A stretch of 64,000 bases of DNA from IMG/VR virus record IMGVR_UViG_3300020037_004820. One strand, given 5' to 3'. The notes below the pieces were generated by a model that made no database searches, was not told the origin of the DNA, and was given only the letters and a program-made list of their open reading frames with translations. Shown in pieces: positions 705-59,901 of the stretch. Source of the stretch: a virus. Lineage: Duplodnaviria; Caudoviricetes. The translations under genes were made by a program, and so were the position numbers. Every line of letters starts with the position of its first letter. Within the stretch, counting starts at the first letter, position 1.

Positions 705-1820
705 ATGATAAAATTTGTGGACATTATACAGGATCTCGCATATGGCGACGCGGGAAAAGGTGCTGTGGCATATTCTCTTTCTAAAAAACCTGAGTATGAT
801 ATCTGTATGAGAGTAAATGGCGGGTCTAATGCGGGACATACAATTTACCATGAAGGTAAAAAATTCGTTACTCATCAAGTTCCAACTGGTATTTTTCACG
901 GTAAAACATGTATAATTGGTAATGGATGTGTTGTTAACGTCTCAAAACTTTTAGATGAGATCAAAGAATTAGAAGAAGCAGGCATTTCTTGCAAAGGAAG
1001 GATTTTCATAGCGCATAATGCTCATATTGTCATGGCTGATCATGTAAAAGAAGAAGAGAACGAATCTGCAATTGGAACAACCAAACAAGGGATTGGACCT
1101 TGTTATAGAGATAAATACGCTCGCAAAGGATGCAGAGCGATTGATCTTCTGTTTGAGCATATTTTTGAAGGCAAAGAAGAAGAAGGATATTCATTGATCT
1201 ATTCAGAAAAATATGGTCCGTTGAGGGATCATGTTATAGATATGATCATTGAAGTGCACCCTGTCTTGTTTGTTTCAAATAAAAACTACGGTATTCTTGT
1301 AGAAGGTGCGCAAGGCTATTATCTAGATATCGATCATGGTGATTATCCATATGTTTCTTCTTCACATGCTTCTGTTGCAGGAGCATTGCTGAATGGGCTT
1401 CCGTTTAATAAAATCAGAAAGGTATATGGAGTTATTAAGGGCTACGAAACTTATGTTGGTGCAATGAAATTCCAACCATTAGATCCTATATTTGATAAAT
1501 TAGGAGACTTGGGACAAGAATTCGGGGCAACAACTGGAAGACGTAGACAGTGCAATTGGTTAAATTTGGATAGACTTGTAAAAGCTATGCAAGTCAATTG
1601 TGTGACTCATTTGATTGTATCTAAAATGGATATTCTTAGAGAATTGAATTTTCAAGAAAATAATCAATATTGGAAAGTGATCATAGGTTCTATAGAGTTG
1701 CCTCTTGTAAATGAAGAGGATTTTTATATGGTTCTTGAAAATACCATCACAACTTATCATTCTTTTGACTTGAAGAATCTTCAATACAAGTACGGTCCCG
1801 ATCAAGAGATAACTGTATGA
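705..1820 (+). CDS. purA: adenylosuccinate synthetase
   Basis: GDAGKG, GGSNAGHT, EGAQG, GATTGRRRQ, SKMD motifs; catalytic Asp retained, so not PurZ. Confidence 0.93.
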   Translation: MIKFVDIIQDLAYGDAGKGAVAYSLSKKPEYDICMRVNGGSNAGHTIYHEGKKFVTHQVPTGIFHGKTCIIGNGCVVNVSKLLDEIKELEEAGISCKGRIFIAHNAHIVMADHVKEEENESAIGTTKQGIGPCYRDKYARKGCRAIDLLFEHIFEGKEEEGYSLIYSEKYGPLRDHVIDMIIEVHPVLFVSNKNYGILVEGAQGYYLDIDHGDYPYVSSSHASVAGALLNGLPFNKIRKVYGVIKGYETYVGAMKFQPLDPIFDKLGDLGQEFGATTGRRRQCNWLNLDRLVKAMQVNCVTHLIVSKMDILRELNFQENNQYWKVIIGSIELPLVNEEDFYMVLENTITTYHSFDLKNLQYKYGPDQEITV

Positions 1821-2280: not shown

Positions 2281-2584
2281 AATATATCCATACGAAATAA
2301 TAGCCATATCAAAAGCTTATGATAAGAAAACTTCTATACAAAAAGTTTTAAAACTAGTAGAAGAAGTCGGTGAACTAGCTCAAGCAATTCTTATAAATGA
2401 AGAAGCTCATGGCACTCAGTATAGAGATAAATCACAATTTTCAATCGTAGAAGAACTTGCTGATGTTTATCTTTGTTTGTTCGCTATTTTTCCAGGATAT
2501 GATATATCCGAAGAAGCTTTTAATGAAGAAGTTGGTAAAAAATTAAATAAATGGACAAACAAAATAGGATTAACAAATGAGTAG
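2273..2584 (+). CDS. MazG-like NTP pyrophosphohydrolase
   Basis: KLVEEVGELA...EELADV motifs. Confidence 0.85.
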   Translation: MNKIYPYEIIAISKAYDKKTSIQKVLKLVEEVGELAQAILINEEAHGTQYRDKSQFSIVEELADVYLCLFAIFPGYDISEEAFNEEVGKKLNKWTNKIGLTNE

Positions 2585-3428
2585 AATAATAATTGGTTAT
2601 CACAATAATTGCAACGATGGATTTGGTGCAGCGTATGTTGCATATTTGCATTACAAAAAATTAGGATTGTTAGATCAAGTTGAATTTGTTCCTATTAATC
2701 CTAGAGCAACTCCTGATATAGATGTTACTGGTTGTAATGTTGTAATTTTCGATGTCTGCTTAGATAAAGAAGCATTACATAAATGGAAAGAAGTAGCAGT
2801 CTCGTTCAAGGTAATCGATCATCACGTATCAAATCAACGGGAATTTGGATATCTTGATTACTGCCATTTCGATATGACTCACTCAGGAGTTGGACTTGCT
2901 TGGCGCCACTATAATCCTGATATAGCTCCTCCGTGGTGGGTTGATTATATAGAAGATAGAGATTTATGGACAAAGAAACTTCCTATGCATGAAGATGTTT
3001 GTGCATTATTGTTATCAACTGAACCTACTTTTGAAGCTTATGATGAGATTGCTTCTATGACAGTTGAAAAAGCTGCCGAGGCAGGCAAATATATTGCTAA
3101 AGCTGATATTGCAAAAATCAATAGAGCAGTTCATAGTTCATCGGCTATTATGCGTGTATCTTTTTGCGGATTTGATAATATTCCGTGTGTTAACAATGCA
3201 AATTTCCAATCAGATATAGGCAATCTTCTTGCTAAAGATGCAGAATTTGGAATCGTCTGGTATGCAGGAGATTCAGAAAAAGATGGAAAATATGCTCAGC
3301 TTTCATTGAGAAGTATAGGGGACTTTGATGTTTCAAAACTTGCTCAACGTTTTGGAGGCGGTGGACATGCAAATGCTTCTGGTTGTAGAATTCCTCTTAA
3401 AGATTGGATGAAAATTCTATGTATATAG
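2577..3428 (+). CDS. DHH/DHHA1 family phosphoesterase
   Basis: YHNNCNDG, IDHH, SLRS, GGGGHANASG. Confidence 0.9.
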   Translation: MSRIIIGYHNNCNDGFGAAYVAYLHYKKLGLLDQVEFVPINPRATPDIDVTGCNVVIFDVCLDKEALHKWKEVAVSFKVIDHHVSNQREFGYLDYCHFDMTHSGVGLAWRHYNPDIAPPWWVDYIEDRDLWTKKLPMHEDVCALLLSTEPTFEAYDEIASMTVEKAAEAGKYIAKADIAKINRAVHSSSAIMRVSFCGFDNIPCVNNANFQSDIGNLLAKDAEFGIVWYAGDSEKDGKYAQLSLRSIGDFDVSKLAQRFGGGGHANASGCRIPLKDWMKILCI

Positions 3429-3672: not shown

Positions 3673-4227
3673 ATGAGTAAACCAGGTTATCATCTTCAAA
3701 AAATAGATAAAGGTGTATTTGGAGAATTTTCCAAAATTCAAGAAGAGCTTGATGAAGCGCAAGATGCCATATATCAAAAATGTAAAATTATGGAATTAGT
3801 TGAGCTATCTGATGTGTATGGAGCTTTAAAAGAAAAGAAGAATATGAAACAAAAACTATTCACAGTCACAGCTAATGATTGTACATGGAATTATTACAGA
3901 GGTTCGGGTCCAGGCGGACAAAAAAAGAACAAAACAAGCAATTGTGCTAGAGTTGTACATGAACCATCTGGAGCAGTTGGAAAAGGCGAACAAGGTCGCT
4001 CTCAAATAGAGAATAGACAGATTGCGTGGAAACAAATGGCGAATAGTCCAGAATTTCAAAATTGGTGTCGCAATAAATCATATGAGATTTCAGGTGATGC
4101 AGAAATTATTAAAAAGAATGTAGAATTTGAACTTGTTTCAAATACATTAGTTGAAATAGAATCCGAAGATGGATGGATTCCTGGGCAACAAATAACAGAA
4201 CAAGATGTAAAAAATTCGAGGGAATAA
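3673..4227 (+). CDS. RF-1 (GGQ) peptidyl-tRNA hydrolase domain protein with N-terminal MazG-like fragment; alternative start at 3844
   Basis: RGSGPGGQKKNKTSNCARVVHEPSG...RSQIENR. Confidence 0.8.
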   Translation: MSKPGYHLQKIDKGVFGEFSKIQEELDEAQDAIYQKCKIMELVELSDVYGALKEKKNMKQKLFTVTANDCTWNYYRGSGPGGQKKNKTSNCARVVHEPSGAVGKGEQGRSQIENRQIAWKQMANSPEFQNWCRNKSYEISGDAEIIKKNVEFELVSNTLVEIESEDGWIPGQQITEQDVKNSRE

Positions 4228-4598
4228 TGAGCACAAGTAAAAACGAAGAAATAGCAAAATTATTCAATAAATTAGAAAATATAGACAAAGCCGATCTTGA
4301 CAGTTATTATCAAGGATGTAAAGATAGTTTTGATGAAGAAGATAGAGAAGAATTTAAAATTACAAAAGAGATAATGCATGATTTATTGGATGATTATGGA
4401 TGGAAACGTATTTCCCATCTAAGAACTCCATATAAACATGATATAACAGAACATGAATGTGTCTCTAAAAGAGAAAGTGATGGAAAATATTTTGGCTACG
4501 GATATACATCCACTTATAATAATGGTATAGATTGGGAATATCTGGGAGAAGCTGTAGAATTATTTCCTATGTCTAAACTTACAACGGTGTACGAATGA
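4227..4598 (+). CDS. hypothetical protein
   Basis: TAATG overlap with upstream gene suggests start MSTSK. Confidence 0.6.
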   Translation: MSTSKNEEIAKLFNKLENIDKADLDSYYQGCKDSFDEEDREEFKITKEIMHDLLDDYGWKRISHLRTPYKHDITEHECVSKRESDGKYFGYGYTSTYNNGIDWEYLGEAVELFPMSKLTTVYE

Positions 4599-4945
4599 TT
4601 GAACAACGACCTTGGGGAACATACTCTATTTTATTCGAAAATGATAGCTGTAAAGTTAAAGAAATAACTGTAAATCCAGGACATTCTATATCTTTACAGT
4701 CTCATAAATTAAGAGAAGAATTATGGAAAATTATTAAAGGAGAAGGAGAAGTCTTAATAGATGGGCAAACTCTTATAGCAAGACCTTGGCCGATTCAAGA
4801 ATCCTATTTTATTATAAGAAAAGAGGTTCAGCATCGTATAACAAATACAGAATCTGAACCTTTAGTATTTATTGAGATACAGACTGGCGACTCATTTGAC
4901 GAAAATGATATAATTCGATATGCAGATGATTATGGGCGTGTATAA
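4595..4945 (+). CDS. cupin, mannose-6-phosphate isomerase type II C-terminal-like
   Basis: RPWG, SLQSHKLREELW, HRITN, IEIQTG...DIIRYADDYGR. Confidence 0.88.
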   Translation: MIEQRPWGTYSILFENDSCKVKEITVNPGHSISLQSHKLREELWKIIKGEGEVLIDGQTLIARPWPIQESYFIIRKEVQHRITNTESEPLVFIEIQTGDSFDENDIIRYADDYGRV

Positions 4946-14202: not shown

Positions 14203-14700
14203 ATGAAAGTAACTATAACAAGACTTAGAGAACTTGCTAAAATTCCGTTTAAGAAGCATGTAAATGATGCAGGATATGATTTATATTGGGCACCAAGTAA
14301 TACACATGAAACATCCCCATTAATTCAATGGGAGGGAAAATCCTATTTTCATGCAATTATGATACCTGCGCATTCTTCTAGAAGGTTTGAAACTGGATTA
14401 AAAGTTAATTTTCCACATGGACATTGCTTAGAGATTAAAAATAGATCGGGCATAGCATCCAAAAAAGATTTAATAGTTGGAGCATGTATAGTAGATTCCA
14501 CTTATACGGGCGAAATATTCATAGATTTACATAATGTTTCAGCTCAACCTCAGATTGTTGAAATAGGAGAACGAATTGCTCAATTCGTTATTTATGAGGT
14601 ACAAAATTGTATATTTGAGGAAGTTACATCTGACCAATATACTGAATTGTTCCCATCAGATCGTGGCGAAAACGGTTTTGGTTCAACAGGAGTAAAATAA
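14203..14700 (+). CDS. dut: dUTPase
   Basis: DAGYDL, RSG, IVDSTYTGEI, RIAQ, RGENGFGSTG. Confidence 0.95.
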   Translation: MKVTITRLRELAKIPFKKHVNDAGYDLYWAPSNTHETSPLIQWEGKSYFHAIMIPAHSSRRFETGLKVNFPHGHCLEIKNRSGIASKKDLIVGACIVDSTYTGEIFIDLHNVSAQPQIVEIGERIAQFVIYEVQNCIFEEVTSDQYTELFPSDRGENGFGSTGVK

Positions 14701-17688: not shown

Positions 17689-18294
17689 ATGAAAAAACCC
17701 GAAGTTACTAAAGAAGCTGAGCATCTTGAAAAAGAGCTATTAGATCGCCTTACAAAAGGAAAATCAATTGATACAAACTTATACTTATTTGGAGAGGTTA
17801 ATGGAAAATCTTCCCTCGATTTAATTGCAACCATTTTTGATGTTGCAAACGAACTTGTAGAAAATGCTGTACCTCATCCGTGTATTACAATATATGTAAA
17901 TACAGAAGGCGGTGAGATTTACGAAATGTATGCAATTCAAGATGTTATAGAATTTGTTCAAAAACAAGGAATTGTGGTACAAACTGTAGGAATGGGGCAA
18001 GTAATGTCTGCTGGACTAATCTTGTTAGCTTGTGGAACTAAAGGTCAAAGATTCTTAGGTAAAAGAACCAGATTAATGTTCCATGAAGTCTCAAACGGAG
18101 TTTCAGGAACATTTGATCATATAAAAACAGAGTTTTCAGAAACTCAATATCTTCAAGATCAATACATTGATACAATTGTTAAATTAAGTAAAAAAAGTAA
18201 AACTTTCTATAAAAAACTTTTGGATAAAAAAAATAACCAATATTTTACAGCAGAGGAAGCTATATCCTGGGGATTAGCAGATAAATTACTCTAA
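17689..18294 (+). CDS. clpP: ClpP-like protease subunit
   Basis: YVNTEGG, MSAG (Ser), MFHE (His), TAEEAISWGLAD. Confidence 0.85.
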   Translation: MKKPEVTKEAEHLEKELLDRLTKGKSIDTNLYLFGEVNGKSSLDLIATIFDVANELVENAVPHPCITIYVNTEGGEIYEMYAIQDVIEFVQKQGIVVQTVGMGQVMSAGLILLACGTKGQRFLGKRTRLMFHEVSNGVSGTFDHIKTEFSETQYLQDQYIDTIVKLSKKSKTFYKKLLDKKNNQYFTAEEAISWGLADKLL

Positions 18295-20897: not shown

Positions 20898-22442
20898 ATG
20901 AAAGTTTACAGTGCTGATTCCGATTTTGACGTTAAAGTAGCAAAATCGTTGAATTTATTAACTTCATATGTTTTAGCAACATATGGACCTTTTGGAAAGA
21001 ATATATTATTGACAAAAGATGGAACAACTTTACTAACAAAAGACGGAGTAACTGTTGCAAAATCTATAACATCTAAAGATAAAACAGAAAATGCTATATT
21101 AGATATAATGAAGCAAGTTGCGGATAAAACTGTTAAAGATGCAGGAGATGGAACAACTACATCAATCTTATTTTTAAAACATTTTGTTGAGAAAATAAAA
21201 GCAACAATAACTGCTTTTCCTTTTATTCCATCTACTAAAATTAGAGAAGTTTTTGAAGAAGAATTAAAAATCTTCTTAAGAGAATTAGAGAACTTTTCAA
21301 CAGATGTGAATTCTAAGGAATTGCTAACTCATGTGGCTTTCATGGCTTCTAACGGTGACAAACTTATTGCAGATTTAGTCGCAACGTTGATTGACCAAGT
21401 TGGCGCAACCGGCTCGGTATCTATAAAAAATTCTAAAACAGGAAAGACCTATATAGATATTGTAGAAGGTTTGAAATTTAAATCCGCAGTAGCTTCTGCA
21501 TCATTTTTAGACGATTTACAAGAGAAAAAAATTCTAACAGATTGTGTTATAGTTGTATCTAATACAACTATTAACCTATCAGATGATCTAATAAATCTTC
21601 TAAGAGATTGTGTTGAAAATAAAAAATCATTACTGTTCGTATGCCCCAATATGGACGAAAAAGCATTATTGACAATTATCACGAATGTCCAGATGAAAAG
21701 AGGACTACAATGTTGTGTAGTCTCTCCCTCTTATTTAGGAATAGAGAAATTAGAGGTTTTTGAGGATGTTGCTTTAATAGCAAATACCTCTGTCAACACT
21801 GTTCAAACATTGACTAGAACGAAAGTGAGTGAATGGGGTTACGCAAAGACCGTCGAGGTGACACGCGGCTCGACCATCCTAATCGACGCAGCCGCTAAGC
21901 CTGAGATTCTGGACAAAGCAATCGAGGGCCTACGTGGTAGGCTACAGGCCGAAGAGGACGACGCTACCAGCAAGCGTCTCGCGTCACGCATTGACCGCTT
22001 GACCTCTACACTCGGCATATTGAATATAGGTGGAGCAACCGATGCAGAAATTATAGAAAAGCACCATCGTGTTGAGGACGCAATAGAATCGTGCCATTCG
22101 GCCATGCGCAAAGGAGTTGTGCCGGGGGGCGGAAGTTCACTCTCTCATTTGGCTGTTATATTCTCATCCAATACCGGGGACGCATTAGTTGATTATGTAC
22201 GTAATGTAATACGCTTCGTTTGTAAACAACCTGCGGCACTGCTCTACAATGGAAACAATGAATTTGTTCAAACAGAAAATCTAAAGATAAAAAAAGTCTT
22301 AGATTTAAGATCAAATTCTTTTGTTGATCCCATTGAAAATGGTTTAGTGGAAGCAGTTTGGACGATTCAATCAGCTATGTATAATGCATTCAGTAGTGCT
22401 TGGTTACTATGTCAATCATATGGTTCTGTAATAGAAGAATAA
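20898..22442 (+). CDS. groEL: GroEL-like chaperonin
   Basis: TYGPFG, TKDGVTVAK, AGDGTTT, RVEDA, GVVPGGG. Confidence 0.93.
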   Translation: MKVYSADSDFDVKVAKSLNLLTSYVLATYGPFGKNILLTKDGTTLLTKDGVTVAKSITSKDKTENAILDIMKQVADKTVKDAGDGTTTSILFLKHFVEKIKATITAFPFIPSTKIREVFEEELKIFLRELENFSTDVNSKELLTHVAFMASNGDKLIADLVATLIDQVGATGSVSIKNSKTGKTYIDIVEGLKFKSAVASASFLDDLQEKKILTDCVIVVSNTTINLSDDLINLLRDCVENKKSLLFVCPNMDEKALLTIITNVQMKRGLQCCVVSPSYLGIEKLEVFEDVALIANTSVNTVQTLTRTKVSEWGYAKTVEVTRGSTILIDAAAKPEILDKAIEGLRGRLQAEEDDATSKRLASRIDRLTSTLGILNIGGATDAEIIEKHHRVEDAIESCHSAMRKGVVPGGGSSLSHLAVIFSSNTGDALVDYVRNVIRFVCKQPAALLYNGNNEFVQTENLKIKKVLDLRSNSFVDPIENGLVEAVWTIQSAMYNAFSSAWLLCQSYGSVIEE

Positions 22443-30192: not shown

Positions 30193-30654
30193 TCAAGGCC
30201 AATCACAAACTGTCCAACTTATATCAGGATAATTTTGAGAAATTTCTAGCAAAACTTCTTCTGTCTTGTACCAAGGTACACCAAAAAGACCTGAGTTGAA
30301 TTTGTTCGAATATACATCCGACACCCCTAGCATACGCGCCATTTCGAATATGTCAAGCACGGCTGTTTTTGTAGAGGATATAATCTCATTTACAGAGTCA
30401 ACGTCTGATCCAAACGCATAGGACGTAAATAAACATCCAATGCGTCTATCAGAATCGTGTACCACAAGTCCTGTACCTAGTAAGGTTTTACCATCTCGTT
30501 CACAAATTGCTCTATATTGGGAGGCAGCTTCTGGGTATCTATCCCTGAACACTCTAGCTATTCCTGATCCCCAAACTCCTAAACAATTACAAGCATGTAC
30601 AAGCATTGCTTCTTTTGGAGCATCAAAGAGATCCATTTTCTTTATTTCAATCAC
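30193..30654 (-). CDS. macrodomain ADP-ribose hydrolase (Poa1p/TARG1-like)
   Basis: DLF, HACNCLGVWGSGIA, NSGLFGVPW. Confidence 0.88.
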   Translation of the reverse strand: MIEIKKMDLFDAPKEAMLVHACNCLGVWGSGIARVFRDRYPEAASQYRAICERDGKTLLGTGLVVHDSDRRIGCLFTSYAFGSDVDSVNEIISSTKTAVLDIFEMARMLGVSDVYSNKFNSGLFGVPWYKTEEVLLEISQNYPDISWTVCDWP

Positions 30655-55842: not shown

Positions 55843-56066
55843 TATAGAAGAATATACAAATATATTCAGAGGCATCATGAAGAAAGAAATAGTGGGTATA
55901 AATCACTTAAAAGAAGTATCTAGATTATTAGCAAGAACATATAATCTTTTAAATGAAGGAAAAGACATTTTACCTTATGCTAAATGGCAAGATTTGATAT
56001 CATCTATTAAAGATGAAGTCAATGAACATATTATAGATAATACCAAAATAATTGGAGAAGAATAAT

Positions 56067-56780
56067 ATGAATTTAGAAGAAATGGTCCTGAGTTATCAAA
56101 AAGATTCTAATAAAGAATTGCTTGAAGAAATATTAACAAAATGTAACTCTTTTGTTAAAAGTTTATCTACATATTATTTCCTTAAAAACAGAAAGAATAT
56201 CTTATTAGAAGATTTAAGATCATCTGCTATAGAAGGATTGATAATATCTATTAACAAGTTTAATCAAGATAAAAGTAAAAGTTTTGAACCATATGCTCGA
56301 TTATGGATTTCTGCAAAAATAAGACAATTCTTGCTTAAAAACATAACACCTTTTTCTATAAATGATAAACAAGGCAGACTTAATTTTACGAAATTTTATA
56401 ATTCATCTTCTGACAAAGAATCTAAAGGATATGTATCATTTTTAGATGCATTTAATTTAGCATATCAAGAGCCTGATGAAGAGAGTTATATGTCCAGTTC
56501 TATAACTCCTGAACAGGACCTTTTAAAGAAAGAAGAATTTGCTTTATTCAATAGCGAAGTTGATTCGTTTAAAGAAAAGATAACAGATGTTGAAAACTTT
56601 ATCTTTAGTAAAAGAATTTTATCAGATTCTCCTTTAACTTTAGAAGAAATTTCTAGTAAATTTGATTGTACTAATCAGAATATAGCATATAAAGAAAAGA
56701 AAGTTTTAGATAAATTTAAGAAGCATATTTTGAATTCAAAGTATCGCGAAGTGTTCCAGGCTGGCACGCTCGTTGCATGA
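56067..56780 (+). CDS. sigma70-family RNA polymerase sigma factor
   Basis: EDLRSSAIEGLIISINKFN..K..SFEPYARLWISAKI (region 2); TLEEISSKFDCTNQNI (region 4 HTH). Confidence 0.85.
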   Translation: MNLEEMVLSYQKDSNKELLEEILTKCNSFVKSLSTYYFLKNRKNILLEDLRSSAIEGLIISINKFNQDKSKSFEPYARLWISAKIRQFLLKNITPFSINDKQGRLNFTKFYNSSSDKESKGYVSFLDAFNLAYQEPDEESYMSSSITPEQDLLKKEEFALFNSEVDSFKEKITDVENFIFSKRILSDSPLTLEEISSKFDCTNQNIAYKEKKVLDKFKKHILNSKYREVFQAGTLVA

Positions 56781-56792
56781 CGAAAAAGACGC

Positions 56793-56820
56793 TTGACGGG
56801 GCGGGTCAAGGGGTTATAGG
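56793..56820 (+). promoter_or_regulatory. promoter of the Ubl cassette
   Basis: TTGACG-N16-TATAGG; CTTGAC/GTCAAG inverted repeat. Confidence 0.7.
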
Positions 56821-56872
56821 TCGGTGTAGCCGAGTAAGGCGAAAACAGAAAGACAAAGGAAGAGAGGAAAAT

Positions 56873-57067
56873 ATGGCTAATGTTGCAGTGAAGGTTCTCG
56901 GTCGTGATCGTCAGTTCGCCACGGCGAATACCGTTGGTGATTTGAAGACTCAGGTGGGTGTGAATAGCAATTACACCGCTTCGGTCAATGGTTCTCCTGT
57001 CGAGAACGATTTTGCTTTGAGTGACGACGTGTTCGTTACTCTGGCGCCGCCTGTCAAGGGTGGTTGA
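56873..57067 (+). CDS. ubiquitin-like (beta-grasp) protein ending in GG
   Basis: 64 aa; TVGDL, SVNG, LSDD..VTL, C-terminal VKGG; GAGG RBS. Confidence 0.85.
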   Translation: MANVAVKVLGRDRQFATANTVGDLKTQVGVNSNYTASVNGSPVENDFALSDDVFVTLAPPVKGG

Positions 57068-57086
57068 TTAGTTACTATATGAAAAT

Positions 57087-57115
57087 AGGGCGACTTCGAG
57101 AGGGGTCGCCTTTTT
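57087..57115 (+). terminator. terminator between Ubl and E2 genes
   Basis: ggcgact-loop-ggtcgcc followed by ttttt. Confidence 0.7.
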
Positions 57116-57145
57116 CATTTAACCAGTCCATCCTAAAAGGAAAAT

Positions 57146-58240
57146 ATGTCTAAACAAGAATTGCCCACTTCCCTTAAGATCTATCTTCGTGCCATTCGTA
57201 CTCCCGATAAGCGGAAAGAGTTTCTAGAACTATATCACTATATCCAGCACTTGGCAGGAGATTTTGACGTAACGGTTTCGGAAGCAGACATTCTTGAAAT
57301 GTTCGGAATGGACAATGCTACTTTTCCATCTAAAATTGATATTAACAAGCGGCTATTTAAGCTGGCCCAAACAGACACTGTTAAAAAGGCCGCAGCAGAT
57401 TTTGATATTGCTATTATCAATAGCATGTGTACGAACTATTTCAGTAATGCAGGTAACAAAGAGCAACTACAGCGGTCTATTAGAAATAGCCAAACATCTA
57501 TCAATCGTTGTAACGATGATATTCGCTCTTATGTAACCGCTATCATCGATGCAAAGCGCCAGCTTGTTTCAATGGAAACTAGCGATCATACTGACACTTT
57601 CCTTCGAGAAATCAACAAGATTATTTCTTCTAACAAGTTTGAACAAATTTATTATTACTTGCCGACTCATACTCTTTGTGCAGTTACCAAACCTGTTAAT
57701 ATTCGATATGGCGAAGTCGATTATTCTCTTGGTCAGTATGTAATCGCATTCACTAGCTATGACAAGCGCTTTCATGTTTACCCGCATAAGAATAATATCA
57801 TTGCGGAAGGTGTTGGTCAACGTATTCATCCTCACGTTTTCGAAAGCCGTGAAATTTGCTGGGGAAATGCGAGCGCAACTTATGCGGAATTGATGTCTTC
57901 CCAAAAGATCGGGGAACTATTTCTCATTGCAAATATGATTTTGCATGCATATAATAGGGATTCCCCTGTCAATCCTATCGAAACCTTTAAGAATGACAAA
58001 ACCTGTCCGGTTACGCGAAATACCATACTGTATGTAACGGATTATCCCGTTCATACGCAATTTCTTATTGATCTTTACCCTGAGCTTAAAACGGATAAAT
58101 TGCTTCTGTCAACGTATGTTGCTCGAATCAAGAATGTTCATAACTTCAGTTATAAACTGACGGATGATCCAGTTCAAGAAATCACGCCAGAAGAAAATAT
58201 TGAAAATAATGTGTCCGAAATAATCTCTGAGGTGGCATAA
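57146..58240 (+). CDS. E2/UBC-like conjugating enzyme with N-terminal helical/coiled-coil region
   Basis: RIHPHVFESREICWGN matches the E2 HPN/H-x(7)-C signature. Confidence 0.72.
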   Translation: MSKQELPTSLKIYLRAIRTPDKRKEFLELYHYIQHLAGDFDVTVSEADILEMFGMDNATFPSKIDINKRLFKLAQTDTVKKAAADFDIAIINSMCTNYFSNAGNKEQLQRSIRNSQTSINRCNDDIRSYVTAIIDAKRQLVSMETSDHTDTFLREINKIISSNKFEQIYYYLPTHTLCAVTKPVNIRYGEVDYSLGQYVIAFTSYDKRFHVYPHKNNIIAEGVGQRIHPHVFESREICWGNASATYAELMSSQKIGELFLIANMILHAYNRDSPVNPIETFKNDKTCPVTRNTILYVTDYPVHTQFLIDLYPELKTDKLLLSTYVARIKNVHNFSYKLTDDPVQEITPEENIENNVSEIISEVA

Positions 58241-59169
58241 TGAGTTCCGTTAAAACTGGTCCTTCGACTCCTGTAAAAAATAAGTTTCGTACACCACGTC
58301 TGATTATTCCTCAAGATATTCATCGAAAAATTATGTTTTGGGTAGACGAAGCTAACTTCGAATGCTCATGGTTGGGAACTATTGACCATGATAAAGAAAG
58401 TAACACTTTCTATGTTGTGGATGTATTCCTATTGAAGCAAGAAAATAGTTCAGCTTCTACTGATCTTGACCAAAATGAAATTGCTCGATTGCTCTATGAG
58501 CAGAGAGAAAATCCTTTTGATATCAAGTGGTGGGGACATTCCCACGTTAAGATGGATGTATTTTGGTCAAATACTGACATCGCTACGATGGAAATTCTTA
58601 GCGATGGTGGGTGGTTTATCTCTACGGTGTTCAATCAACACCGTAAAATGAAAACGGCTTTTACACAACTCGATCCTCTTCCTGTTATGATCGATAACAT
58701 CGAAACAACAGTATACGACTTTCTGTCCGAAGCGGAACGTCGCGAATGGAAAGAGGAATTCAATAGTAAAGTTACCAATAAATCTTATTCATATAAATCG
58801 AGTTCGACTACAGCACCTTCCTATTATTCTCAAAATCAAACTCCTGTTGTTGTTCAAACTCCAAAGAATAATATCCCTCCTCCGGCTAATATGCCTGATT
58901 GGAAGCAATATGCAACTGATAAGTGGAAGGAAGGATTACATGCTGCGGAAGCAATTGAAGTAATCAAAGAAGCTAAAAACGTTTATAAATCAGCAGAAGA
59001 AATTATGATGGAAGATGACGCTGGTCCTTTAGATGATATTGGTTTATATATAGCTATGCAGGAGCATGGTAATAGAGAAGAATCAGGAGAGAGAACTCTT
59101 TCTCCACAAGAAGAAGAATTTTTGGCAGAACTTTACGAACAATACGAATTAGCAAGGCAATCAGTATGA
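58240..59169 (+). CDS. JAB/MPN metalloprotease (deubiquitinase-like)
   Basis: FECSWLG (Glu); WGHSHVKMDVFWSNTD (HxH-x7-S-x2-D). Confidence 0.88.
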   Translation: MSSVKTGPSTPVKNKFRTPRLIIPQDIHRKIMFWVDEANFECSWLGTIDHDKESNTFYVVDVFLLKQENSSASTDLDQNEIARLLYEQRENPFDIKWWGHSHVKMDVFWSNTDIATMEILSDGGWFISTVFNQHRKMKTAFTQLDPLPVMIDNIETTVYDFLSEAERREWKEEFNSKVTNKSYSYKSSSTTAPSYYSQNQTPVVVQTPKNNIPPPANMPDWKQYATDKWKEGLHAAEAIEVIKEAKNVYKSAEEIMMEDDAGPLDDIGLYIAMQEHGNREESGERTLSPQEEEFLAELYEQYELARQSV

Positions 59170-59843
59170 TTTCAATCAAAAAAGAACATCTAGTTCGGCA
59201 AGCAGATCTAATTCCTCTTGATGCTTTGAATACTCGTGTTACGATTATCGGAGCAGGAGCAATTGGATCATTTAGTGCTTTTGCTCTGGCAAAAATGGGA
59301 TACAATGATATTCATGTTTTTGATTTTGACGAAGTTAGCGTCGAAAACATGAATGCTCAAATGTATCGTTTTTCAGATATCGGTGGTCAAAAAGTCGAAT
59401 GTTTGAAAGAAATTATCAAAGACTTTGCGAATGTCGATATCGTTGCACATGATTGTAAATATGAAGGTGAAGTTTTTCAAGATATCGTTGTTGCGGCAGT
59501 TGATAACATGGCAACTCGTAAAATGATATACGAGGCGCATCGAGATATGCCATATATCACCAGTTTGTATATTGATCCAAGAATGGCTATTGAATATGCC
59601 TATATTCAGGCTTTTAATCCGAATGATAAAGAGCAGTGCGGTCTATATGAAAAGACCTTGTTTAGCGACGATAACGCTATTCAAGACCGCTGCACCAACA
59701 AATCTACAATATACACGTCTCAACTGATAGGGGCGACCATCGCCAAGATTATCAAAGACATTACTACAAATAAGAGACATATCAATAGAATGATGTGGGA
59801 CATTGCTGGCAACGACGTTATGGAAGTAACGCAGCTCGGCTAA
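59166..59843 (+). CDS. ThiF/E1-like activating enzyme
   Basis: RQ, IIGAGAIGS, DFDEV..EN..Q, K, AVDN, candidate catalytic Cys in QDRCTNK. Confidence 0.9.
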   Translation: MISIKKEHLVRQADLIPLDALNTRVTIIGAGAIGSFSAFALAKMGYNDIHVFDFDEVSVENMNAQMYRFSDIGGQKVECLKEIIKDFANVDIVAHDCKYEGEVFQDIVVAAVDNMATRKMIYEAHRDMPYITSLYIDPRMAIEYAYIQAFNPNDKEQCGLYEKTLFSDDNAIQDRCTNKSTIYTSQLIGATIAKIIKDITTNKRHINRMMWDIAGNDVMEVTQLG

Positions 59844-59873
59844 AACACAAAATATATATTGAAGTTAAAATCA

Positions 59874-59901
59874 AGGCGGCCATTGGCCGCCTTTTTTTTT
59901 T
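59874..59901 (+). terminator. terminator closing the Ubl cassette
   Basis: aaggcggcc-att-ggccgcc followed by a long T run. Confidence 0.85.

What the first reader, a model, noticed from the sequence alone, without database searches (positions are those of the whole stretch)
56793..59901. Complete phage-encoded ubiquitin-like conjugation cassette: Ubl(GG)-E2-JAB-E1
Seen: four consecutive genes encode a 64-aa beta-grasp protein ending VKGG, an E2-like protein (HPHV-x6-C), a JAB/MPN protease with an intact E/HxH/S/D motif, and a ThiF/E1 with a candidate catalytic Cys (QDRC). The cassette has its own promoter and closing terminator. Known: E1+E2+JAB+Ubl operons in bacteria (Bil, Bub types) conjugate Ubl to proteins, and Bil is an anti-phage defence. 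The presence of an E2, and no ThiG/MoaE/rhodanese in the window, argues against sulfur transfer. Inference: here the system sits on the phage, so it may tag host proteins, counter or mimic a Bil/CBASS-Cap2 system, or attack co-infecting phages. The long helical N-terminal region of the E2 could give target specificity in place of an E3.
Basis: partly seen in the sequence, partly recalled or inferred. Interest (0 to 1): 0.93.

Follow-up and report, generated by a model that had tools for sequence, protein, structure and literature searches.

The report
Phage-encoded ubiquitin-like conjugation cassette
A giant bacteriophage carries its own four-gene kit for ubiquitin-style protein tagging (tag, activating enzyme, carrier enzyme, trimming protease); such kits have been characterised in bacteria only as host anti-phage defences, and what the phage version tags is unknown.

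Summary
Window 56873-59843 (+) encodes four genes in a row:
- a 64-aa ThiS/SAMP2-like Ubl ending VKGG-stop;
- a 364-aa protein whose C-terminal half is a UBC-type E2 (HPH-x7-Cys238, invariant Cys);
- a JAB/MPN+ metalloprotease with an intact JAMM motif;
- a minimal 225-aa ThiF-type E1 with an invariant crossover-loop Cys176.

E2, JAB and E1 overlap by 1-4 nt. A strong hairpin terminator follows the Ubl gene and another closes the operon. The claimed promoter is not verified.

The context is a jumbo phage, and the cassette is a compositional island. The same cassette, mostly in the same order, recurs in IMG/VR phage contigs that share no other genes with this window: 28 of 40 E1-seeded loci have all four genes. 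The E2 family has 936 representative clusters, and its nearest ESM Atlas clusters are unnamed and mostly viral. Divergent versions probably sit in Bacteroides phage crAss001 (gp79-gp76) and Flavobacterium phage FpV4.

The gene order equals BilABCD, but the E1 is single-domain, no Bil, PRTRC or ThiF model is met, and the E2 carries the Ube2w-like HPH signature. I found no paper describing a complete phage-borne cascade. This scan has noted similar phage cassettes many times on other DNA.

Most likely it is a working E1-E2 thioester relay that tags proteins in the infected cell. The targets are unknown.

The parts
56781..56872 (+).
   Evidence: GC 0.50 against 0.27 for the upstream gene. No sigma-70 site listed here. 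Fold z -2.95. No Rfam family.
56873..57067 (+). Ubl: 64-aa beta-grasp modifier ending VKGG-stop
   Evidence: Pfam ThiS above cut-off. SAMP2 5lda_B is the best PDB hit, E 0.011, aligned to the C-terminal GG. Homologous small proteins with a ...KG[GA] motif sit first in the related cassettes. GC 0.51, GC3 0.51.
57087..57112 (+). Internal terminator/attenuator hairpin followed by a U-run, between Ubl and E2
   Evidence: dG -20.1, z -4.76. Terminator-like hairpins occur in 12 of 24 Ubl-E2 gaps of relatives, against 0-1 in shuffles.
57146..58240 (+). E2: conserved helical N-terminal domain (about residues 1-146) plus a UBC-fold core (about 147-307) with HPH228-230 and catalytic Cys238
   Evidence: AF2 pLDDT 88. 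VIA-align E2 hits, Z 6.1-7.8. Profile against PDB: Rad6 E 2.7e-5. 15 of 90 relatives hit Pfam UQ_con. Column counts.
58240..59169 (+). JAB/MPN+ (JAMM) zinc isopeptidase core (residues 15-180) plus a low-confidence C-terminal tail with conserved motifs
   Evidence: JAMM motif invariant. Profile hits JAMM1 and an Rpn11-like protein. AF2 core pLDDT 80-90. Foldseek: Rpn11, CSN5, JAMM1 (TMt 0.83) and the bacterial Ubl-DUB 8tyx_B. Start overlaps the E2 stop by 1 nt.
59166..59843 (+). Minimal single-domain ThiF/MoeB-type E1 (225 aa) with invariant Cys176; no CxxC zinc motifs, no UFD or rhodanese domain
   Evidence: Pfam ThiF 5.8e-22 over residues 21-199. PDB: UBA3 9.5e-9, also MoeB, ThiF and UBA5. 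Invariants R11, GxGxxG, D53, D55, K76, D113, R118 and C176. Start overlaps the JAB stop by 4 nt.
59873..59893 (+). Closing intrinsic terminator (9-bp GC stem plus T10)
   Evidence: dG -17.7, z -4.3.

Best explanation
This is a self-contained, phage-owned ubiquitin-like protein-conjugation cascade.

Proposed steps:
1. The small Ubl is made in excess, because a terminator after its gene attenuates read-through into E2-JAB-E1.
2. The minimal ThiF-type E1, presumably a homodimer like MoeB/ThiF/UbaA, adenylates the Ubl's C-terminal Gly.
3. The E1 takes the Ubl as a thioester on its invariant crossover-loop Cys176.
4. The Ubl passes to the invariant Cys238 of the UBC-fold E2.
5. With no E3 in the operon, the E2 transfers it directly to amino groups of target proteins.
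6. The JAB metalloprotease removes the tag. In most relatives, whose Ubls carry 1-22 extra residues after the Gly motif, it would also mature the precursor.

Shown here: the identities, folds, motifs, invariant residues and operon architecture of the four genes; the recurrence of the cassette in unrelated phages; and the phage context.

Inferred: every chemical step and the role. The most likely role is an accessory 'conflict' function, tagging host or rival-phage proteins in the infected cell, and not a core virion-assembly step. The reasons are that the cassette moves as a unit between otherwise unrelated phages, is a compositional island here, and has E2s with variable appended domains.
For: Gene identities.

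Invariant catalytic residues: E2 H228, C238 and G240 in 90 of 90 sequences and HPH in 78 of 90; E1 C176 and the adenylation residues; the JAMM motif.

Operon architecture: E2, JAB and E1 overlap by 1-4 nt, and there are two strong terminators. In 24 related cassettes the Ubl-E2 gap is always at least 45 nt. E2-JAB is 15 nt or less, or overlapping, in 21 of 24, and JAB-E1 in 20 of 24. Hairpin terminators occur in 12 of 24 gaps against 0-1 in shuffles.

Recurrence: motif-seeded IMG/VR loci carry the same four genes in the same order. Of 40 E1-seeded IMG/VR loci, 28 have all four genes and 26 have them in the order Ubl-E2-JAB-E1. Their flanks encode terminase, portal, head-tail adaptor, primase and helicase. 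Apart from one weak DNA-polymerase match (26% identity), nothing outside the cassette is shared with the window in the 11 motif-seeded loci compared.

Ubl precursors: 17 of 28 relatives have KGG plus 1-22 extra residues, so a peptidase is needed, as for BilA/BilC (abstract).

Island: cassette GC 0.38 (Ubl 0.51) against flanks 0.27-0.31.

Phage context.

Gene order is identical to BilABCD, a proven conjugation system.
Against: There is no biochemistry and no known target.
- The window's E2 has no Pfam, PADLOC, PHROG or NCBIfam hit of its own.
- Foldseek against the PDB found nothing for the E2.
- The VIA-align Z-scores (7.8 or less) lie in the range the tool warns can be a common arrangement. 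The E2 call therefore rests on convergence of fold, motif alignment and transitive Pfam hits.
- The Ubl and E1 are closest by sequence to sulfur-carrier families (ThiS, ThiF).
- The E1 has no UFD or separate Cys domain, so how it recruits an E2 is unexplained.
- Seven relatives' Ubls end in Gly-Ala, so the exact mature C-terminus is uncertain.
- HPH instead of HPN may mean atypical chemistry.
Confidence: 0.72

Rival explanations
1. Sulfur-carrier pathway. The Ubl is a ThiS/MoaD/TtuB-type carrier that the E1 adenylates and that becomes thiocarboxylated, feeding cofactor synthesis or tRNA thiolation (the phage carries many tRNAs). The JAB only trims or recycles it, as in CysO/Mec+ or QbsE/QbsD.
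For: The Ubl's only family hit above cut-off is ThiS. The E1's best NCBIfam hits are ThiF and MoeB models. Operons of JAB, ThiS-like protein and E1 for sulfur transfer are described (Iyer et al. 2006).
Against: A UBC-fold E2 with an invariant Cys is translationally coupled in the operon and co-conserved in 32 of 40 related loci; sulfur transfer has no use for it. All ThiF, MoeB and UbaA equivalog scores are far below cut-off, for example 78 against 159 bits. The E1 has no rhodanese domain. No ThiG, MoaE, TtuA or rhodanese was found in the scanned ORFs, and none travels with the cassette. Only 64 kb of a genome of at least 221 kb was seen.
Confidence: 0.06
2. Same cascade, but the role is Bil-like superinfection exclusion. 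The phage carries a defence-type system that tags structural proteins of competing phages in a co-infected cell and spoils their assembly.
For: Composition and gene order equal BilABCD, which tags a phage central tail fibre. The cassette is mobile and a compositional island. E2s carry variable appended domains.
Against: No Bil HMM in PADLOC is met by the Ubl, E2 or JAB. The E1 architecture differs. The nearest ESM Atlas clusters of the E2 are mostly viral, and the cassette sits in many virulent-looking phages, which fits a function in the phage's own cycle. There are no data on targets.
Confidence: 0.2
3. Same cascade, but aimed at the phage's own proteins: timed maturation, assembly control or turnover of phage proteins.
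For: Lambdoid and T1-like phages use a Ubl (TAPI) with a JAB (TAPK) in tail assembly. Some related cassettes lie within 10 kb of terminase, portal and adaptor genes.
Against: In the motif-seeded loci compared, only the four genes (plus one weak DNA-polymerase match) are shared between otherwise unrelated phages. No structural gene co-varies with them. In this window, in L006 and in crAss001 the cassette sits among replication or early-type genes.
Confidence: 0.12

Closest known systems
Bil systems (BilABCD, Type I and II; operon classes 6c/6d of Iyer et al. 2006)
   Same: The same four components and the same gene order, Ubl-E2-JAB-E1. No E3. The Ubl has a C-terminal Gly, and many relatives need DUB pre-processing. 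Thioester-type Cys in both E1 and E2.
   Different: [quoted passage not shown] PADLOC finds no match for the Ubl, E2 or JAB. The E2 is nearer to eukaryotic UBC profiles and has a roughly 146-aa conserved helical N-domain. The Ubl is a single 64-aa SAMP2/ThiS-like domain. It is carried by phages, not by host defence islands.
Archaeal sampylation (SAMP2, UbaA, JAMM1)
   Same: The Ubl's best solved relative is SAMP2. The JAB's best-fitting solved fold is JAMM1 (TMt 0.83), from the same crystal complex, 5lda. The E1 is a small non-canonical MoeB/ThiF-type.
   Different: Sampylation has no E2; here a UBC-type E2 is integral. The UbaA equivalog model scores 35 against a cut-off of 450 bits. The E1 lacks CxxC zinc motifs.
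Eukaryotic UBC E2s, especially the Ube2w family
   Same: UBC fold, HPx-x7-Cys spacing and a downstream N-P-x-S-P motif. HPH in place of HPN, described as a Ube2w-specific signature.
   Different: Roughly 12-15% identity. An extra conserved N-terminal helical domain. C-W-G-N after the Cys. No E3 partner. The window protein does not reach Pfam UQ_con.
Bub pathways (6E/DUF6527) and CBASS Cap2/Cap3
   Same: Bacterial E1/E2/JAB-type conjugation machinery linked to phage conflict. The E1 shares its nucleotide-binding part with Cap2 models.
   Different: Bub uses fused proteins, oxyester (Ser) intermediates and a DUF6527 serine protease. Cap2 is an E2-E1 fusion that conjugates a CD-NTase. Here the proteins are separate, the Cys residues are invariant, there is a free Ubl, and there is no DUF6527 or CD-NTase.
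Viral precedents: lambdoid TAPI/TAPK (Ubl plus JAB) and E1-like genes of Asgard viruses
   Same: Viruses of prokaryotes carrying Ubl, JAB or E1-like genes.
   Different: Neither has an E2 or a full cascade. TAPI/TAPK is a tail-assembly pair. The Asgard-virus E1s are proposed to hijack host systems.

Membership tests
Bil (BilABCD) | Four genes Ubl-E2-JAB-E1 in that order, no E3 | tested here: met
   order as given for Bil.
Bil (BilABCD) | [quoted passage not shown] | tested here: not met
   The E1 is 225 aa. One ThiF domain covers residues 21-199, and Cys176 lies in the crossover loop.
Bil (BilABCD) | Sequence membership in defence-system HMMs for Ubl, E2 and DUB | tested here: not met
   PADLOC v2: no hit for the Ubl, E2 or JAB. 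The 25 E1 hits shown, of 33, are all CBASS 'E1-E2' models, matched over only part of the ThiF domain.
Bil (BilABCD) | Host-encoded, in defence islands, protects against phage | tested here: not met
   The location is a jumbo phage and other phage contigs. The protection phenotype cannot be tested with these tools.
UBC/E2 superfamily (Pfam UQ_con clan) | UBC fold: N-terminal helix, four-strand meander, active-site loop, helices | tested here: met
   AF2 model pLDDT 88. About 20 of the top 21 VIA-align hits are E2s, Z 6.1-7.8, 122-141 residues aligned. Caveat: Z is below 8, and Foldseek found nothing.
UBC/E2 superfamily (Pfam UQ_con clan) | HPN-type motif followed 8 residues later by the catalytic Cys | tested here: met
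   H228-P-H230 ... C238. Aligned to HPNV...C of Rad6 and UbcH5. Cys in 90 of 90, HPH in 78 of 90, HPN in 1 of 90.
UBC/E2 superfamily (Pfam UQ_con clan) | Pfam UQ_con gathering threshold | tested here: not met
   No Pfam hit for the window protein. 15 of 90 relatives match UQ_con at E up to 0.01, best 7.8e-7.
JAB/MPN+ (JAMM) metalloproteases | E ... HxH-x7-S-x2-D zinc site on an MPN fold | tested here: met
   E41, H100, H102, S110 and D113 are invariant. Foldseek gives probability 1.00 to Rpn11, CSN5, JAMM1 and BilC-type 8tyx_B.
E1/ThiF/MoeB superfamily | Rossmann-type adenylation domain above the Pfam threshold, with conserved Arg, Asp and Lys residues | tested here: met
   PF00899, 78.5 bits against a cut-off of 28.1. 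Invariants.
ThiF / MoeB / UbaA / PRTRC-ThiF equivalogs (NCBIfam) | Score above the curated equivalog cut-off | tested here: not met
   ThiF 78 against 159 bits; MoeB 36 against 377; UbaA 35 against 450; PRTRC_ThiF 42.9 against 144.75.
ThiS/MoaD beta-grasp family | Pfam ThiS threshold and a C-terminal Gly-Gly | tested here: met
   25.4 bits against 22.5, aligned to the end; VKGG-stop. This shows the fold family, not a sulfur-carrier function.
Bub (6E/DUF6527) | Ubl-E2 or E2-E1 or JAB-E1 fusions, Ser (oxyester) catalysis, DUF6527 protease | tested here: not met
   Four separate ORFs with invariant Cys in the E1 and E2. The neighbours scanned (the sigma-like gene upstream and the 280-aa ORF downstream) have no DUF6527 hit. 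Features as listed.

The most novel reading that the evidence does not exclude
A virus-owned ubiquitin-type 'tag-and-destroy' or takeover pathway. The phage's Ube2w-like HPH E2 would tag host proteins, possibly at N-termini or other non-lysine sites as Ube2w does. The tag would feed them to proteolysis by the phage's own ClpP (17689-18294), or otherwise disable host defences. That would be the first ubiquitin-proteasome-like logic run by a bacteriophage.
Probability: 0.08. Interest if true: 0.95.

Novelty: new variant of a known kind. Interest (0 to 1): 0.8.

Why it matters
Ubiquitin-like conjugation in bacteria has so far been characterised as host immunity (Bil, Bub, CBASS Cap2). A complete cascade owned by phages would be the other side of that conflict, or a new host-takeover tool. 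This one is widespread: the E2 family has 936 clusters at 50% identity, and the cassette recurs in dozens of phage contigs.

Its E2 is closer to canonical eukaryotic UBC enzymes than the known prokaryotic E2 families appear to be. It is paired with the simplest possible E1. That combination bears on how E1-E2 relays evolved and on how an E2 can be charged without a UFD.

The system is small (four genes, 3 kb) and lacks an E3. The conserved Lys-Gly-Gly end means trypsin would leave the standard di-Gly remnant, so existing K-epsilon-GG proteomics could find its targets directly. Probable divergent versions in culturable phages (crAss001, FpV4) would make it testable in the laboratory.

Tried and rejected
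- No whole genome is held for this window.
- blastn of the cassette against 50,697 phage records found no match. tblastn of the E2 and the JAB against the same records also found none.
- Only the E1 matches, in FpV4-type and crAss001-type phages.
- An IMG/VR scan seeded with the JAB alignment found nothing.
- Alignments A3 and A4 were too divergent to seed scans. I used a degenerate DNA pattern for HPH-x7-CWGNA instead, and then an E1 alignment.
- Foldseek of the E2 model against the PDB was uninformative.
- Searches compared the wrong FpV4 ORF pairs and are uninformative. I redid them.
- crAss001 gp78 and its FpV4 counterpart against the E2 profile gave hhalign probability of about 1%. Their E2 status is inconclusive, although the pair shares invariant YMHSH...C-x-G...G-x-P positions.
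- The last homologue search, on gp78, returned only near-identical sequences.
- No Rfam family lies in or around the cassette.
- Literature searches found no description of a complete phage-borne cascade. The library lacks most subscription journals, so this is not proof of absence.


Full report
OBSERVATION

Window 56873-59843 (+) holds four consecutive ORFs.

(i) Ubl, 56873-57067. It is 64 aa, follows a strong GGAAGAGAGG ribosome-binding site, and ends VKGG directly before TGA. It passes the Pfam ThiS threshold (25.4 against 22.5 bits, aligned to its last residue). Its best solved relative is the archaeal modifier SAMP2 (5lda_B, E 0.011).

(ii) E2, 57146-58240, 364 aa. The protein itself has no Pfam, PADLOC, PHROG or NCBIfam hit.
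- A profile of its six close homologues finds 936 representative clusters at E up to 1e-3 in a 1.8-billion-protein library.
- In an alignment of 90 of them, H228, C238 and G240 are invariant and P229 is nearly so. The third motif position is His in 78 of 90 and Asn in only 1.
- 15 of the 90 hit Pfam UQ_con on their own, best 7.8e-7.
- The 90-sequence profile hits Rad6 (E 2.7e-5) and UbcH5 in the PDB. HPHV aligns on HPNV, C238 on the catalytic Cys, and Y-N-P-x-S-P on the E2 N-P-x-S-P motif.
- An AlphaFold2 model (pLDDT 88) has a helical N-terminal part. From residue 147 it has a helix, a beta-meander, a loop carrying HPH and Cys, and further helices.
- Exhaustive VIA-align ranks eukaryotic E2s in about 20 of its top 21 places (UbcH10 Z 7.8, E2S, UBE2F, UbcH5b, Ubc13 and others) over residues 147-294/307.
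- Foldseek against the PDB found nothing, and Z below 8 is not decisive alone. Fold, motif register and transitive Pfam hits nevertheless agree.

(iii) JAB, 58240-59169, 309 aa. E41 and H100-x-H102-x7-S110-x2-D113 are invariant in 15 homologues. The profile hits JAMM1 and an Rpn11-like protein. The modelled core (residues 15-180, pLDDT 80-90) matches several solved proteins at E about 1e-9 to 1e-7:
- Rpn11;
- CSN5;
- Pyrococcus JAMM1 (TMt 0.83);
- a bacterial Ubl-deubiquitinase (8tyx_B).

(iv) E1, 59166-59843, 225 aa. Pfam ThiF 5.8e-22. Best PDB relatives are UBA3, MoeB, ThiF and UBA5. The adenylation residues and Cys176 (the 'QDRC' Cys) are invariant in the cassette E1s. There is no CxxC pair and no extra domain.

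Operon layout. E2/JAB and JAB/E1 overlap by 1 and 4 nt. A 9-bp GC hairpin plus T10 closes the operon (59873-59893, z -4.3). A second strong hairpin plus U-run lies between Ubl and E2 (57087-57112, z -4.8). The 'own promoter' is not verified.

CONTEXT

The window encodes typical large-phage functions:
- a family-A DNA polymerase, DNA ligase, exonuclease and thymidylate synthase;
- two RNA ligases, T4-type polynucleotide kinase and a Ro60-like protein;
- GroEL and ClpP;
- a PurZ-like enzyme.

Proteins identical to the E2 and JAB lie on a 221,336-bp contig. No whole genome is held. Among the ORFs of at least 150 aa that I scanned, which is most of them, none is a ThiG, MoaE, rhodanese or TtuA-type partner.

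The cassette is a compositional island. Its GC is 0.38, and the Ubl and its leader reach 0.50-0.51 (GC3 0.51). The flanking genes are 0.27-0.31 (GC3 0.12-0.20).

RELATIVES

A degenerate DNA pattern for HPH-x7-CWGNA found 7 IMG/VR viral contigs and 4 MAG contigs. Most carry Ubl, E2, JAB and E1 in the same order.

An E1-seeded IMG/VR scan gave 40 loci:
- 28 have all four genes;
- 26 of those are in the order Ubl-E2-JAB-E1, and two are Ubl-E2-E1-JAB;
- 32 have at least E2, JAB and E1.

Flanks of the related loci examined encode terminase, portal, head-tail adaptor, primase, helicase and DNA polymerase. In the 11 motif-seeded loci compared, nothing outside the cassette is shared with this window except one weak DNA-polymerase match (26% identity). 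The four genes therefore travel as an autonomous module.

The architecture is conserved. The Ubl-E2 gap is at least 45 nt in all 24 cassettes examined. E2-JAB and JAB-E1 mostly overlap or lie within 15 nt. Terminator-like hairpins occur in 12 of 24 Ubl-E2 gaps against 0-1 in shuffles.

Ubl C-termini share ...[VT]-K-G-[GA]. Seventeen of 28 have KGG plus 1-22 extra residues, seven end in KGA, and none ends exactly at GG as the window's does. Most relatives therefore need a maturing peptidase.

E2 proteins range from 289 to 812 aa. They consist of a conserved module of about 290 aa (helical domain plus UBC core) with variable N- or C-terminal extensions.

The nearest ESM Atlas clusters are unnamed and mostly Uroviricota. 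BFVD hits are uncharacterised proteins of uncultured Caudovirales and crAss-like viruses.

CULTURED PHAGES

Among 50,697 deposited phage genomes only the E1 is detectable by tblastn, in Flavobacterium FpV4-type and Bacteroides crAss001-type phages.

In crAss001 the ThiF gene gp76 is preceded by two genes:
- gp77 is a JAB homologue (hhalign 93.6%, E 2.2e-7; Pfam Prok-JAB 4.9e-4).
- gp79 has an N-terminal part that looks like a Ubl and ends ...IKSG, followed by a long tail.

FpV4 has the same layout (...VKSGG plus tail; JAB hhalign 80%).

The protein in the E2 position (gp78) does not match the E2 profile significantly (probability about 1%). gp78 and its FpV4 counterpart do share invariant YMHSH...C-x-G...G-x-P positions. 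This is a lead, not a result.

MECHANISM

The best-supported reading is a thioester relay. The E1 adenylates the Ubl and takes it on Cys176. The Ubl then passes to E2 Cys238 and on to target amino groups without an E3. The JAB reverses the tag and, in relatives, matures the precursor. The internal terminator would give an excess of Ubl over the enzymes. All chemical steps are inferred.

The E1 has no UFD, so E2 recruitment is unexplained. The conserved helical N-domain of the E2 (Y32 and N67 nearly invariant) is a candidate docking element. This is inference only.

HPH instead of HPN is described as a Ube2w-specific signature, and Ube2w modifies N-terminal alpha-amines. Non-lysine targets are therefore possible.

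Role. Mobility, island composition and variable E2 appendages point to an accessory conflict function, either host takeover or counter-defence, or exclusion of rival phages, more than to core assembly. I put about 0.72 on the conjugation mechanism. No single role gets more than about 0.4.

The sulfur-carrier rival gets about 0.06. Its main weakness is that a co-conserved, translationally coupled E2 with an invariant Cys has no place in sulfur transfer. In addition, every equivalog score is far below cut-off.

COMPARISON WITH KNOWN SYSTEMS

Gene content and order equal BilABCD. Several things differ:
- BilD is a multidomain E1.
- No PADLOC model fits the Ubl, E2 or JAB.
- The carrier is a phage.

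The Ubl and JAB resemble archaeal SAMP2 and JAMM1 most closely, but sampylation has no E2. Bub uses fusions, oxyester chemistry and a DUF6527 protease. Cap2 is an E2-E1 fusion acting on a CD-NTase. The PRTRC ThiF model scores 42.9 against 144.75 bits.

Known viral precedents are partial: lambdoid TAPI/TAPK (Ubl plus JAB) and the E1-like genes of Asgard viruses. A 2026 review lists ubiquitin signalling among the accessory genes of giant eukaryotic viruses but not of jumbo phages. A 2021 jumbo-phage survey mentions ubiquitin only in passing. None of my literature searches found a paper on a complete phage-borne cascade. The library is incomplete.

This scan's own notes show that similar phage cassettes were flagged many times on other DNA.

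VERDICT

This is a new variant of a known kind: a phage-owned Ubl-E2-JAB-E1 cascade with a minimal E1 and an HPH-type UBC E2. Interest 0.8.

Noticed in passing
L009:3979-5584: In a MAG contig's copy of the cassette, the JAB gene is split exactly inside the catalytic motif: the first part ends ...WWWH-stop and the second begins SHVNMNVFWS. The split is a roughly 800-bp insert. The insert carries a 191-aa ORF (4300-4875) with two LAGLIDADG-like motifs, so it is probably a homing-endonuclease element. No group I intron model matched.
   Followed up: partly
L013:690-5100 (crAss001 gp79-gp76) and L001:559-4570 (FpV4): Culturable Bacteroidota phages carry a probable divergent cassette. It has a Ubl-like N-terminal domain ending KSG(G) with a long tail, an unclassified roughly 420-444-aa protein with invariant YMHSH...C-x-G, a JAB homologue, and ThiF. 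The record annotates gp76 as 'thiamine biosynthesis protein', gp77 as a metalloprotease-domain protein, and gp78 and gp79 as hypothetical.
   Followed up: partly
window 17689-18294, 20898-22442, 3673-4227, 30193-30654: The phage encodes its own ClpP protease, a GroEL chaperonin, an RF-1-domain (ArfB/peptidyl-tRNA-hydrolase-like) protein and a Macro-domain protein. Together these form a proteostasis and translation-rescue toolkit that could interact with the Ubl system.
   Followed up: no
window 705-1820, 2577-3428, 14203-14700: There is a PurZ-like adenylosuccinate-synthetase homologue (phrog_1211, 1.5e-69), with a DHH phosphoesterase and a dUTPase-like gene nearby. This may hint at a 2-aminoadenine (Z) genome.
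   Followed up: no
window 56781-57067: The Ubl gene and its leader have GC 0.50-0.51 (GC3 0.51) in a genome of GC 0.34 whose neighbouring genes have GC3 0.12-0.20. E2, JAB and E1 are intermediate at 0.38. This suggests recent acquisition or strong codon selection on the modifier.
   Followed up: partly
window 58228-58240 and alignment A4: Many E2 family members end in a short conserved C-terminal -E-V-A, -A-A or -V-A, which resembles C-terminal degradation tags. The meaning is unknown.
   Followed up: no
window 58780-59166: The JAB's low-confidence C-terminal tail holds conserved motifs (I-P-x-P-A-N-M-P-D-W-K-x-Y-A and a terminal acidic helix Q-E-x-E-F-L). These may be docking sites for the E1, the E2 or substrates.
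   Followed up: no
L014:5726-6478; L040/L041: One related phage has a second, shorter E2 paralogue just after the E1. Two others have the order Ubl-E2-E1-JAB, with an E2 of about 705 aa.
   Followed up: no
window 56052-56780: The gene immediately upstream of the cassette is sigma-factor-like (phrog_351 6.7e-15; Pfam Sigma70_r2 just below cut-off). It is not conserved next to the cassette in relatives.
   Followed up: partly
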